Origin: a virus
Lineage: Duplodnaviria; Heunggongvirae; Uroviricota; Caudoviricetes
Reading direction: 5' to 3' (one strand)
Virus record (IMG/VR): IMGVR_UViG_2671180890_000005
Coordinates: 1 to 51,026 of that record
Length of the DNA: 51,026 bases
Part shown: piece after piece, positions 9,001 to 12,000 of the stretch
Position numbering within the stretch: position 1 is the first letter of the stretch
Layout: each line of letters begins with the position of its first letter
Position numbers: made by a program

Positions 9001-12000
9001 CTTGTCGATCTTTAATATATTGCGCATGATTGTAAGTACCTCGAATAGAGTTCTTATCAACATGCGCAAGCTGCATTTCAATCCAGGCACTTTCAAACCC
9101 ATGCTCATGCAAGATGGTGCTCATGGTATGCCTGAAACCGTGACCCGTTAACCGACCGTGATAACCCAGTAGTTTTATCACTTTGTTGATGCTGGCTTCG
9201 CTCATTGGTTTACTGACGTCATTCCGGCCAGGGAAAACGAGGCTGTAATTCCCTGTTATTTCTTGCAGCTTTTTCAGGATATTGATCGCCTGAGTTGATA
9301 ACGGAACCAGATGGGGGCGGCGTTTCTTCATCCGTTCTTTGGGGATCTCCCATAAGGCATTATCTAAATCAAACTCAGCCCATTCCGCTGCACGTAGTTC
9401 AATTGTTCGCACGCCTGTTAGCATCAACAGCTGCGTGGCGTATTTGGTAACTAAACTGCCCTGATAGTTATCCAGAGCATTAACGAACTCGGGCAACTCG
9501 CTTTCAGTCAGGAACGGGAAGTGTTGGGTTTTAGGTTTGTTGAGTGCGATAGCTAAATCGGGTGCAAAATTATACTTTGCTCTACCAGTGGCAACAGCAT
9601 AACGAAGCACTTCACCACAGCGGCGGCGGATCTTACTGGTTTGCTCTAGCGCACCTCTTTTCTCTATTTTTTGCAGGACGGTTAGCAGTTCTAATGGTTC
9701 AATCTGCTCAATTGGGCGCTGGCCGATAAAAGGAAAAATATCCTTTTCCATACAATTGAGAACCTCTTTTGCATAACCCTCTGACCAGGTGGCTTTTTTC
9801 GATGAGTGCCATTCTCTGGCCACAGACTCAAAGCTGTTCTCATGCGCGAACTGCAAAGCAATCTTATCTGCTTTTCTGGCTTCACTTGGGTTTATCCCGT
9901 TGGCTAACATCGAACGCGCTTCATCACGTTTGGTACGTGCCTGTGCCAACGACACATCGCCATATACGCCAAAGGAAATCATCTTAGGCTTACCTGCAAA
10001 GCGATAGCGAAAACGCCAGCCTTTACTGCCCGCTGTGTCGATCAGGAGTGATAGCCCCATACCATCGTTAAGCGTATAGGGTTTGTCCTTCGGTTTTGCT
10101 CTTTTTATTTGGATGTCAGATAGCAGCATGTGTATAGAAAAAAGATCGAACTCAGTTATACACAATGTTATACGCAAAGATGTATAGATTCCATTAGAAA
10201 TAATGGTACTTTGCTGGACGAGTATAAGGAGATGATATCAGTTAAAACAGTGAGTTATGGAATTAATTGAACTTAGTGAGAAGTGTTCATGGTGTCCCCT
10301 GCAGACATCTACTTGAGGCGGCAGGGGATTGATTGGAATGGTGTTTTTTAGATGTGAGAAATATTTTACCCGCTATTTTACCCATTGGCGCGGCTTAAGA
10401 GCTTATTTTTGAATTCACAATGGTCACGATATAACCATCTTGCTCGCCCGTGGATAACTTTGGCTTTTGGCAGGTCGCCGGACTTAATCCGGTCATAGAT
10501 GAAGGTTTTACCGAAGCCAGTATCGGCCATGATGAATTTCAAATCAACCAGTGAATCAGGTTGTAGTTCGTGTTGCATGAGTGCTATCTCCGAATAGGGA
10601 ATCGAACCTGCAAATCAGGCAATAAAAAACCGCCATCAGGCGGCTTGGTGTTCTTTCAGTTCTTCAATTCGAATATTAGTTACGTCTGCATGTGCTATCT
10701 GCGCCCACAGCATCCAGTGGTCATAGCAGTCGTTGATGTTCTCTGCTTCGATAACTCTGTTGAATGGCTCTCCATTCCATTCACCTGTGACTCGGAAGTG
10801 CATTTATCATCTCCATAAAACAAAACCCGCCGTAGCGAGTTCAGATAAAAGAAATCCCCGCGAGTGCGAGGATTATCATTCATTGTCGATATTCACCTTT
10901 ATAGCGAACACCTTTACCGGTTTATCGCCGAAGTGCGGATGTGTGATTGTCTTGATTTCATATCCGTCATACGGGACGTCAATTCTGCGGCTGGAATCGT
11001 CGCGCTTCGGATATCCCTTTGTGATAATCAGGCGGTCATACTCGCGGAACATAATTCGCTTATTCCAGTAGTCATTACACAGGCGATACTCTTCCGTTTT
11101 CTCTCCGCGAATCATGGCATCGAAGTATTCACCTTTAACGGCAAGTTGCAGGTTAGCCACGACCTTCCTCCTTTGGCTTGTGAATTTGTATCGTCATGCC
11201 GCTTTGAGTGGTGACTACAACGACAGAACCAGGCTGAAGACTGTTAAGATTGAATGCTTCGTAAAACGAAGCCAAGGCCAGCGCTTTTTTATTCTTTCGG
11301 TTCCACCAACGCCATCCATTGCTACAGGCTACACTGACAATCCACTGTCCACTCCTGTAAGCCATATAAAACCAGATGAGCAAAACCTGAAGGAAGGCTA
11401 TCCAGTTAATAATCGTATATTTCGCGAAGTAGTCCATCACTTCACCTCCTGCGGCGGTTCTGGTAGCGGCATCCAGTGTGTTACATTGCTAATCAGACCA
11501 TATTCATTAGTTTGAGGATGCCCGCCGCGATCGTCTCCGTATTTAAAACTTTCCATAAAACCATAATGCTTATCCCCATTAACGCTCACAAAGCCGTAAT
11601 AAGCTGGTATAACGCCGATCTCACACGTAATCAACAAAGGAAAACTAGTTCTCCAATTTAGCTCACCAATTACAGGCATTCGATCACTACAGCTTATCCA
11701 ACTATCCGGAGTTCCCGGAGAGTTGCCATTTACATCGAAGTTTGGCTCTGCGTCCTGAACCAGGAGGATGTAACCATTCTTGGCTGTATCAAGTTCTAAC
11801 GCCTCGGTGACGGTGCCGAAATAGCGATTACCTAAATCAGCATCACAAGTGCTTACATCAATGGAAACTTCCATGCCCTCGATTAATTCTGGCAACTTGT
11901 AAGTTTGGCTTATAGGCTCTGCTTCCAGCGATGCCAGTGCAATTCGTGCCAGTTCCATTTGTTCTCCACGGGTAAGTCCGTTATCAAGCGGATTTTTAAT

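What the first reader, a model, noticed from the sequence alone, without database searches (positions are those of the whole stretch)
10597..10613. Second tRNA-like fragment (T-arm) upstream of torI, not contiguous with the 3'-end core
TTGCAGGTTCGATTCC (minus strand) is a T-stem plus T-loop that would pair with the CTGCA at the start of the 10290 core, yet about 290 bp including the TorI-like gene separates them. This may be a relic of an older recombination event or part of the phage att arm, and may overlap the torI promoter.
Basis: seen in the sequence. Interest (0 to 1): 0.4.

Follow-up and report, generated by a model that had tools for sequence, protein, structure and literature searches.

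The report
Conserved tRNA T-arm box before torI
A 16-base copy of the T-arm of the argW tRNA gene sits just upstream of a prophage's excisionase gene (torI); it is not the recombination crossover site, but it is conserved far better than neutral DNA, so it is probably a control site for the excisionase gene.

Summary
Minus strand 10613-10598 reads TTGCAGGTTCGATTCC, which is argW nt 47-62. It directly precedes, in tRNA numbering, the att core at 10304-10289 (nt 62-76). The two pieces are 293 bp apart, with torI between them, and there is no intact tRNA.

The window is a tandem array at argW. A P4-like satellite and a P22-like (CUS-3/HK620/Sf6-type) prophage are joined at a hybrid att core.

The 16-mer has been annotated before. 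GenBank CP000711 (CUS-3) calls it "attR core", and Sf6/HK620 records place a putative promoter pI over it. The CUS-3 label looks wrong. The record ends at the box and so lacks torI. The real crossover lies in CTGCAGGGGACACCAT, and a 135-bp attR without the box recombines in vitro.

New here: a 14-nt box, CAGGTTCGATTCCC, lies 26-29 nt before the excisionase (RDF) ATG in 13 divergent argW-targeting lineages. Pairwise identity is 0.90, against 0.31 in the flanks and 0.52 at third codon positions. So it is a tRNA-derived relic that is kept by selection.

The mechanism is inferred, not shown. I think it is most likely an operator for the module's own proteins. It contains TorI's GTTCG recognition pentamer and equals the attB left half-site.

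The parts
10598..10613 (-). 16-nt exact copy of argW tRNA nt 47-62 (end of variable loop, 5' T-stem, T-loop, first two bases of the 3' T-stem). This is the same 16-mer that GenBank CP000711 annotates as the CUS-3 'attR core'.
10597..10610 (-). Conserved 14-nt box CAGGTTCGATTCCC. It contains GTTCG, the experimentally defined TorI recognition pentamer, and its first 13 nt match the attB left half-site (argW nt 50-62).
   Evidence: PMC2951348
10588..10591 (-). Shine-Dalgarno GGAG of torI, 5 nt downstream of the box (7 nt after GATTCC).
10378..10578 (-). torI (HkaC / Sf6 gp18), the recombination directionality factor; 66 aa, 100% identical to the Sf6 and HK620 proteins.
10364..10383 (-). Two GGGTAAAA repeats (read on the minus strand) at the 3' end of torI. 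They are conserved in all lineages and are inferred to be the IntS arm-type P sites.
   Evidence: conserved columns; inference from PMC2951348
10289..10309 (-). att core. Minus strand reads GATGTC (C site) | TGCAGGG (inferred 7-bp overlap, 10303-10297) | GACACCAT (C'/B'). Here it is a hybrid junction: the prophage P arm on one side and the P' arm of the P4-like satellite on the other.
10627..10646 (-). Intrinsic terminator of the upstream gene, followed by TTTTTTATTGCCTGATTTGC. This segment is shared with phage lambda up to the first TTGC of lambda's CII box.
10636..10803 (-). 55-aa ORF homologous to the lambda ORF just upstream of xis. It marks the mosaic boundary on the early-left-operon side.
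8954..10129 (-). Integrase of the P4-like satellite (Arm-DNA-bind_3 + Phage_int_M + Phage_integrase). Its P' arm (10130-10288) carries GAGTTCGATC about 16 nt before the ATG.
49869..51026 (-). IntS-type integrase of the P22-like prophage. The window ends at its start codon, so attL and argW lie just outside the window.

Best explanation
The fragment is a piece of the argW T-arm that sits in the leader of the excisionase (RDF) gene torI. It is part of the phage genome and lies 293 bp beyond the true att core. It is not where strands are exchanged. Its central 14 nt (CAGGTTCGATTCCC) are kept by purifying selection at a fixed distance from the RDF start codon in many argW-targeting phages, so it is a working cis element. 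These points are shown by sequence comparison. The mechanism below is inferred. I think it is most likely an operator bound by the module's own recombination proteins, through which torI expression is limited. One candidate is TorI itself, giving negative autoregulation: the box is centred on TorI's GTTCG pentamer and matches TorI site I4 at 9 of 12 positions. The other candidate is the core-binding part of the integrase, since the box is identical to the attB half-site immediately left of the inferred overlap TGCAGGG. I put TorI at about 0.25 and integrase at about 0.2. No binding has been shown for either.
For: Origin and position. Part of the phage and not the chromosome: virion genomes of Sf6, HK620 and Kapi1 carry box-torI-attP-int. 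In strain R14, argW is followed directly by the satellite integrase with no torI. Not the crossover: the KplE1 core is CTGCAGGGGACACCAT (PMC2951348). Kapi1 lysogen versus cured strain shows a 17-bp duplication, AATGGTGTCCCCTGCAG (PMC8787464). A 135-bp attR that ends inside torI recombines in vitro (PMC3509656). The real core has inverted half-sites G[AG][TC]GTN / GAC[AG]CC around TGCAGGG, with covariation in some lineages, e.g. L018 GGCGTA/GGCGTT. Conservation: the box is present in E. coli, Enterobacter, Atlantibacter, Serratia, Citrobacter, Pantoea (2 lineages), Edwardsiella, Hafnia, Cedecea, Erwinia phages Midgardsormr38 (two tandem copies) and phiEt88, and Salmonella phage Emek. Pairwise identity of the 14-mer is 0.90, against 0.31 in each flank, 0.52 at codon position 3 and 0.76 at positions 1+2. 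RDF proteins are as little as 33% identical. GTTCGATT starts 26-29 nt before the ATG in 11 of 12 lineages. Link to the recombination proteins: TorI sites were defined by mutating GTTCG/GATCG/GTCCG. Site I4 in CUS-3 attL reads TGGTTCGCTTCA, against AGGTTCGATTCC in the box. TorI is known to repress the intS promoter through such sites.
Against: No binding or expression data exist for this site. In 25 inferred RDF sites of five P' arms, the base after GTTCG is C or T and never A; the box always has A. The window has only one copy, whereas TorI sites in attL form cooperative arrays. phiEt88 keeps the box although the repeats in its P' arm look different (GATGTAAC/GCGTTAC). However, its leader and first codons may be mosaic, because its closest relatives lack the box. 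For the integrase, there is no inverted partner half-site 7 bp away. About 19 related lineages lack the box entirely, so it is dispensable. Among 80 E. coli proviruses, 5 carry one mismatch in the central 11-mer. The conservation figures were computed on lineages chosen because they contain GTTCGATT, which inflates the value for the central 8 nt. The six unanchored positions are still conserved in 9-12 of 12 lineages.
Confidence: 0.45

Rival explanations
1. It is a neutral relic. It would be a leftover of an ancestral attP with a longer tRNA identity block, or of an old tandem-integration and deletion event, with no present function. It looks conserved only because the leader spreads horizontally as a mosaic unit.
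For: It is clearly tRNA-derived. Different lineages keep different extents of argW: E. coli nt 47-62, Serratia L012 nt 50-64, Pantoea L015 nt 52-64. Leaders appear to be exchanged between RDF types: the Emek-type RDF has a leader nearly identical to those of L013/L011, and phiEt88 differs from its relatives. Many lineages have lost the box. Single-base variants occur in E. coli proviruses.
Against: Adjacent non-coding bases are randomised (0.31 identity), while the 14-mer stays at 0.90 and is better conserved than codon positions 1+2. The linker and the SD-to-ATG spacer differ between lineages, so the leaders are not recent copies of one another. The distance to the ATG is fixed. Midgardsormr38 has a tandem duplicate.
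Confidence: 0.2
2. It is the real att core of CUS-3-type phages, as annotated in GenBank CP000711. On this reading, recombination occurs between the argW T-arm and this 16-mer, and torI is chromosomal.
For: The CUS-3 record begins and ends with this 16-mer, labelled attL core and attR core. The two copies are direct repeats flanking the prophage.
Against: The CUS-3 attL continues ...TGCAGGGGACACCAT, followed by the same P' arm and the same IntS-type integrase as KplE1, Sf6 and HK620. The core of those phages is the 16-17-mer at the tRNA 3' end. The record as cut lacks any TorI homologue. Virions of Sf6, HK620 and Kapi1 carry torI between the box and the core. Exchange at the T-arm would leave argW interrupted by torI. 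The box has no flanking inverted half-sites, unlike the true core. I could not read King et al. 2007, which is not held.
Confidence: 0.03
3. It is promoter DNA. It would be the spacer or -35 to -10 region of 'pI', a CII-dependent (lambda pI-like) or sigma-70 promoter that drives int and/or torI, as annotated in the Sf6 and HK620 records.
For: The Sf6 annotation places pI at positions equivalent to window 10594-10621. The sequence upstream is homologous to lambda up to the first TTGC of lambda's CII box, TTGC-N6-TTGC, which lies directly before xis. The window has TTGCCTGATTTGC.
Against: The consensus scan finds no sigma-70-like promoter in 10200-10900. The TTGC repeats are spaced N5, not N6. 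Lineages that keep the box (Edwardsiella, Hafnia, Midgardsormr38, phiEt88, Serratia) have no TTGC repeats upstream. Spacer DNA of a promoter is not normally invariant.
Confidence: 0.1
4. It acts in the RNA, as a T-loop-like leader element of the torI mRNA. It could affect translation (its UUCC can pair with the GGAG Shine-Dalgarno), RNA processing, or recognition by a tRNA-binding factor.
For: It always lies in the transcribed leader 5-8 nt before the SD when read from the early-left operon. It often follows an intrinsic terminator.
Against: RNAalifold on 12 leaders gives -0.4 kcal/mol, with essentially no covariation support. T-stem complementarity is not maintained: only L010, L012 and L018/19 can form 4 or more pairs. 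The box-to-SD linker varies freely in sequence.
Confidence: 0.1

Closest known systems
att core of the KplE1 / Sf6 / HK620 / Kapi1 recombination module (argW 3' end, CTGCAGGGGACACCAT)
   Same: Both derive from the same tRNA gene. Both occur as direct repeats at the two prophage ends. Both lie in the same torI-attP-intS module.
   Different: The box lies 293 bp away, outside the minimal functional attR. It has no overlap region or inverted half-sites. It is not duplicated by integration; the second copy is simply the resident tRNA.
TorI (RDF) binding sites I1-I5 in KplE1 attL, through which TorI also represses the intS promoter (Panis et al. 2010)
   Same: It contains the defining GTTCG pentamer and matches site I4 at 9 of 12 positions. 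It lies next to the start of a recombination gene, where binding could repress expression.
   Different: It is a single site (two copies in Midgardsormr38) rather than an array of 2+3. It has A after GTTCG, where attL sites have C or T. It lies upstream of torI rather than intS. It is untested.
Autoregulating excisionases (P4 Vis, P2/HP1 Cox) and integrase autoregulation through att-site overlap
   Same: The same regulatory logic applies: a recombination protein doubles as a transcriptional regulator of the module's genes.
   Different: This is recalled from my own knowledge of those systems and was not tested here. The operator in this case is a copy of the bacterial target tRNA's T-arm.
tRNA-gene fragments and pseudo-att repeats that flank genomic islands and tandem prophages
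   Same: It is a partial tRNA 3'-half copy next to an integrated element at a tRNA hotspot.
   Different: Those fragments are produced by integration and then decay. This one lies inside the phage genome, upstream of a gene, and is conserved across genera.
Lambda pI / CII box upstream of xis
   Same: It occupies the same genomic position, between the orf55 terminator and the xis ribosome-binding site, and part of the upstream sequence is shared.
   Different: Lambda goes from TTGC-N6-TTGC directly to GGAG. The torI modules carry an extra ~18 nt there (AGGTTCGATTCCCTATTC), and that extra segment is the box.

Membership tests
Intact tRNA gene (argW) | Complete cloverleaf detected by a tRNA finder or covariance model | tested here: not met
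   ARAGORN finds 0 genes in the window. The Rfam E-value search of 9500-11500 gives no tRNA hit. Only nt 47-62 are present.
att core (crossover site) of the argW module | The sequence lies inside the DNA that is sufficient for recombination | tested here: not met
   The attR substrate is 135 bp. Its phage-side primer CTCTTAAGCCGCGCCAATGG maps to about 10384-10403, roughly 195 bp short of the box.
att core (crossover site) of the argW module | A 6-8-bp overlap flanked by inverted integrase half-sites | tested here: not met
   The true core reads GATGTC|TGCAGGG|GACACC, with covariation across lineages. Nothing comparable surrounds the box.
att core (crossover site) of the argW module | Direct repeat at both prophage ends | tested here: met
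   The CUS-3 record starts and ends with the 16-mer. However, the left copy is simply the resident tRNA's own T-arm.
TorI/RDF binding site | GTTCG (or GATCG/GTCCG) pentamer, as defined by mutagenesis | tested here: met
   GTTCG lies at 10607-10603 on the minus strand. The definition comes from PMC2951348.
TorI/RDF binding site | 8-bp context YRGTTCGY and membership of a phased array | tested here: inconclusive
   The box reads AGGTTCGA, with A at both outer positions. None of 25 inferred sites has A after GTTCG. The window has a single copy; Midgardsormr38 has two copies 16 bp apart.
TorI/RDF binding site | Bound by the protein | not testable with these tools
   This needs EMSA or footprinting.
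Integrase core-type half-site (B of attB) | Sequence identity to the half-site adjoining the overlap in attB | tested here: met
   13 of 13 nt match argW nt 50-62, which abut the inferred overlap TGCAGGG.
Integrase core-type half-site (B of attB) | Paired inverted half-site across a 7-bp spacer | tested here: not met
   Seven nt after GATTCC comes GAGATA (the SD region), which is not an inverted copy. Similarity of the leader to argW nt 63-77 is not significant in 12 of 13 lineages.
Sigma-70 promoter | -35 and -10 hexamers with 16-18 nt spacing | tested here: not met
   0 sites in 10200-10900, against 1.2 expected.
CII-dependent promoter (lambda pI/pRE type) | TTGC-N6-TTGC straddling the -35 region | tested here: not met
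   The window has TTGC-N5-TTGC. The repeats are absent from most other lineages that carry the box.
Structured RNA leader | Conserved secondary structure supported by covariation | tested here: not met
   The consensus structure energy is -0.4 kcal/mol.

The most novel reading that the evidence does not exclude
Phages that integrate into argW keep a copy of their bacterial target's left half-site (the tRNA T-arm) in the leader of the excisionase gene. It would act as a sensor or operator for the integrase's core-binding domain, possibly bridged from the arm-type sites at the 3' end of torI so that the gene is looped. Integrase occupancy in the lysogen would then directly gate RDF expression. 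If this is general, RDF leaders of phages that target other tRNAs should carry the T-arm of their own target.
Probability: 0.15. Interest if true: 0.65.

Novelty: new member of a known kind. Interest (0 to 1): 0.4.

Why it matters
For this recombination module, excision is controlled mainly at the level of RDF (TorI) expression, and how torI itself is controlled is largely open. A short, strongly conserved box a few bases before its ribosome-binding site is a concrete, easily mutated candidate for that control. It occurs in well-studied phages (HK620, Sf6, Kapi1, KplE1). The analysis also indicates that the reference CUS-3 record is cut about 0.3 kb short. That record mislabels the box as the att core and therefore omits the phage's excisionase. 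This matters for anyone who uses the record to delimit prophages at the argW hotspot.

Tried and rejected
1. RNA structure of the leader. RNAalifold gave no conserved fold.

2. "Dead second core". I tested whether the rest of the leader is a decayed copy of argW nt 63-77. Serratia L012 looks suggestive by eye (CCTG...GCAGGAG), but alignment against shuffles is non-significant in 12 of 13 lineages. I dropped this idea.

3. Coding constraint. The reading frame of the box relative to the ATG differs between lineages (28 versus 29 nt), so it is not coding.

4. Exact-pattern scans of IMG/VR. These returned mostly genuine phage tRNAs and no new kind of context.

5. Test on modules that target other tRNAs. 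P4-family integrase relatives in Yersinia YeP5, Pseudomonas VW-6S, Acinetobacter Ab105-3phi, Vibrio p41, epsilon15 and Alcaligenes Piluca either lack the RDF-attP-int order or have the RDF translationally coupled with no leader. The prediction that the box tracks the target tRNA could therefore not be tested.

6. P4 itself (leuX target) has CTTCGATT between the arm repeats before int. This does not follow the TTCGAG T-loop of leuX (leuX sequence from memory). So the GTTCGAT motif in satellite P' arms is a family feature, not a copy of the target.

7. Relatives of phiEt88 lack the box. This weakens my earlier argument that the box is independent of RDF specificity.

8. Three papers could not be read: King 2007 on CUS-3 and Menouni 2013 are not held; Panis 2007 (JBC) did not turn up in a library search.
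Full report
OBSERVATION. The plus strand at 10597-10613 reads GGGAATCGAACCTGCAA. The minus strand 10613->10598 is TTGCAGGTTCGATTCC. This is the only match in the window even when three mismatches are allowed. It is identical to the T-arm of argW as read at the start of the CUS-3 record, ttgcaggttcgattcc-tgcaggggacaccat. In tRNA numbering it covers nt 47-62: the end of the variable loop, the 5' T-stem GCAGG, the T-loop TTCGATT, and CC. The att core TGGTGTCCCCTGCAG (10290-10304, unique) covers nt 62-76. The two pieces are therefore adjoining parts of one tRNA 3' half, share one C, and are separated by 293 bp that contain torI (10378-10578, minus). No tRNA gene is detected in the window, and Rfam finds no tRNA match around the site.

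CONTEXT. The window is a tandem array at the argW hotspot. Positions 1 to about 10288 are a P4-like satellite. It carries a P2-family capsid gene, an Icd-like gene, a DUF927 primase, ogr/Delta, sce7726/sce7725 genes and an integrase, as annotated in the near-identical E. coli E62 locus and in strain R14, where the same integrase lies directly next to tRNA-Arg. From 10305 to the window's end is a mosaic P22-like prophage, 44% covered by CUS-3 at 96.5% and also related to HK620 and Kapi1. It ends at the start codon of its IntS-type integrase (49869-51026). The core at 10290-10304 is therefore a hybrid junction: the prophage P arm on the torI side and the satellite P' arm on the other.

WHAT WAS ALREADY ANNOTATED. 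GenBank CP000711 (CUS-3) labels exactly this 16-mer "attR core", and labels the T-arm of the resident argW "attL core". The Sf6 record puts a "boundary sequence" (bsq2) and a putative promoter pI ("possible integrase expression promoter", by homology to HK620) over positions equivalent to window 10594-10621.

The CUS-3 labelling is very probably a mis-assignment, for five reasons.
- The record's attL continues with CTGCAGGGGACACCAT and the same P' arm and integrase as KplE1, Sf6 and HK620.
- That 16-17-mer is the duplicated core in KplE1 (PMC2951348) and in Kapi1, where a lysogen and a cured strain were compared (PMC8787464).
- A 135-bp attR whose phage-side end lies at the 3' end of torI recombines in vitro (PMC3509656).
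- Packaged genomes of Sf6, HK620, Kapi1 and others contain box-torI-core-int contiguously.
- The CUS-3 record, as cut, has no TorI homologue at all.

ANATOMY OF THE TRUE CORE. Across 26 loci the core reads [G(A/G)(T/C)GTN] TGCAGGG [GAC(A/G)CC]. This is an imperfect inverted repeat around 7 bp, and the two half-sites covary in some lineages: L018 GGCGTA/GGCGTT, L024 GACGTC/GGCGTC, L113 GGTGTC/GGTGTC. I infer that TGCAGGG (tRNA nt 63-69) is the overlap region. On that inference the left integrase half-site of attB is the argW T-loop region ...GGTTCGATTCC, which is the same sequence as the fragment.

CONSERVATION (the main new result). I fetched TorI homologues with flanks from one genome per species, from complete phage genomes and from assemblies. 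All of them target argW, with core TG(C/T)AGGG. A box CAGGTTCGATTCCC precedes the RDF gene in 13 distinct lineages:
- E. coli
- Enterobacter
- Atlantibacter and a related MAG
- Serratia fonticola
- Citrobacter
- two Pantoea lineages
- Edwardsiella
- Hafnia
- Cedecea
- Erwinia phage Midgardsormr38, which has two tandem copies 16 bp apart
- Erwinia phage phiEt88
- Salmonella phage Emek

In 12 of these lineages (RDF proteins 68% identical on average, minimum 33%), the 14-mer has a pairwise identity of 0.90. The six bases upstream and the five bases downstream are at 0.31, which is random. Third codon positions of the RDF gene are at 0.52 and first plus second positions at 0.76. GTTCGATT starts 26-29 nt before the ATG in 11 of 12 lineages. 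The lineages were selected because they contain GTTCGATT, so those 8 positions are conserved by construction. The six unanchored positions are still conserved in 9-12 of 12 lineages.

Different lineages keep different extents of the tRNA: E. coli nt 47-62, Serratia nt 50-64, Pantoea nt 52-64. This fits one tRNA-derived ancestor whose edges decayed while its centre was held. The frame relative to the ATG is not conserved, so the box is not coding. About 19 related lineages lack the box, including Klebsiella (where xis is translationally coupled to a traR-like gene), Cronobacter, Dryocola, Tatumella, several Pantoea and relatives of phiEt88. It is therefore accessory. In 80 E. coli proviruses chosen by protein identity, all carry the box. 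Five have one mismatch in the central 11-mer, and eight have C14->A.

WHAT IT DOES (inferred). Several readings have little support. No conserved RNA fold exists. No sigma-70-type promoter is found. The TTGC repeats upstream are spaced N5 rather than lambda's N6 and are missing from most other lineages with the box.

Compared with lambda, which shares the upstream ORF and terminator and goes from its CII box straight to the xis ribosome-binding site, the torI modules have about 18 extra bases there, and these are the box.

Two module proteins are plausible binders.
- TorI. Its sites were defined by mutating GTTCG, GATCG and GTCCG, and through them it represses the intS promoter (PMC2951348). 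The box is centred on GTTCG and matches site I4 at 9 of 12 positions (TGGTTCGCTTCA). Against this, all 25 inferred RDF sites in five P' arms have C or T after GTTCG, whereas the box always has A.
- The integrase core-binding domain. The box equals the attB half-site next to the inferred overlap, and the common factor among all lineages with the box is the argW target. Against this, it has no partner half-site.

phiEt88 keeps the box although its P' arm repeats look unlike GTTCG sites. Its relatives lack the box, and its N-terminus looks TorI-like, so its leader may be a mosaic import. P4-like satellites carry GTTCGAT between arm-type repeats just before int (window 10147-10153, L008, L016, L019, L029, L375). 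P4 itself, which targets leuX, has CTTCGATT there. That motif is therefore a family trait rather than a copy of the target.

I conclude that the box is most likely an operator through which a recombination protein limits torI expression. My estimates are TorI about 0.25, integrase about 0.2, an RNA or promoter role about 0.2, and no function about 0.2.

VERDICT. It is not an att arm component needed for recombination. The 16-mer itself is already in public annotation, once mislabelled as an att core. Its cross-genus conservation as a box in the RDF leader is, as far as my searches reached, undescribed. Interest is moderate.

Noticed in passing
window 1-10304 versus 10305-51026: The window is a tandem array at argW. 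A P4-like satellite (capsid, Icd-like, DUF927 primase, ogr/Delta, integrase) abuts a P22-like prophage. The core at 10290-10304 is a hybrid attR(prophage)/attL(satellite) junction that looks like an attP.
   Followed up: partly
L001 and L004 (GenBank CP000711, CUS-3) compared with window 10289-10613: The CUS-3 reference record is delimited by the T-arm 16-mer rather than the true core. It therefore omits about 0.3 kb that includes torI. A tblastn search with TorI finds no hit in that record.
   Followed up: yes
window 7121-8974: sce7726- and sce7725-family genes lie next to the satellite integrase. This is the position where P4 carries its 'cII' gene, which is also annotated as sce7726 family. 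It looks like the variable cargo or defence slot of P4-like satellites.
   Followed up: no
window 10289-10309, and 25 other loci: The att core is an imperfect palindrome, GATGTC|TGCAGGG|GACACC. Its half-sites covary between lineages, which suggests a 7-bp overlap at tRNA nt 63-69. In most non-E. coli lineages the P-arm side reads TTCGATGT, which is itself T-loop-like.
   Followed up: partly
window 10145-10156 (minus strand); L008, L016, L019, L029, L375; P4 (L379, about 3930-3950): A (G/C)TTCGAT motif sits between arm-type repeats 15-30 nt before the integrase start codon in several P4-like satellites and in P4 itself. It may be a Vis/AlpA-type operator.
   Followed up: partly
L006 (E. coli K-12-type), many of L031-L110, L114 (Emek): Upstream of the terminator that precedes the box, many prophages carry a truncated ORF beginning ...SLTLDEAC.FLKISRPTIAA. 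This is an excisionase-like HTH N-terminus and apparently the remnant of a different xis gene displaced by the torI module.
   Followed up: no
window 10610-10803 and L030 (lambda 29091-29285): The 55-aa ORF and its terminator are about 95% identical over ~90 bp to the lambda sequence immediately upstream of xis. Homology stops inside the first TTGC of lambda's CII box.
   Followed up: partly
L111 (Erwinia phage Midgardsormr38), 1956-1991: There are two tandem copies of CAGGTTCGATTCCC, 16 bp apart, before the excisionase gene.
   Followed up: no
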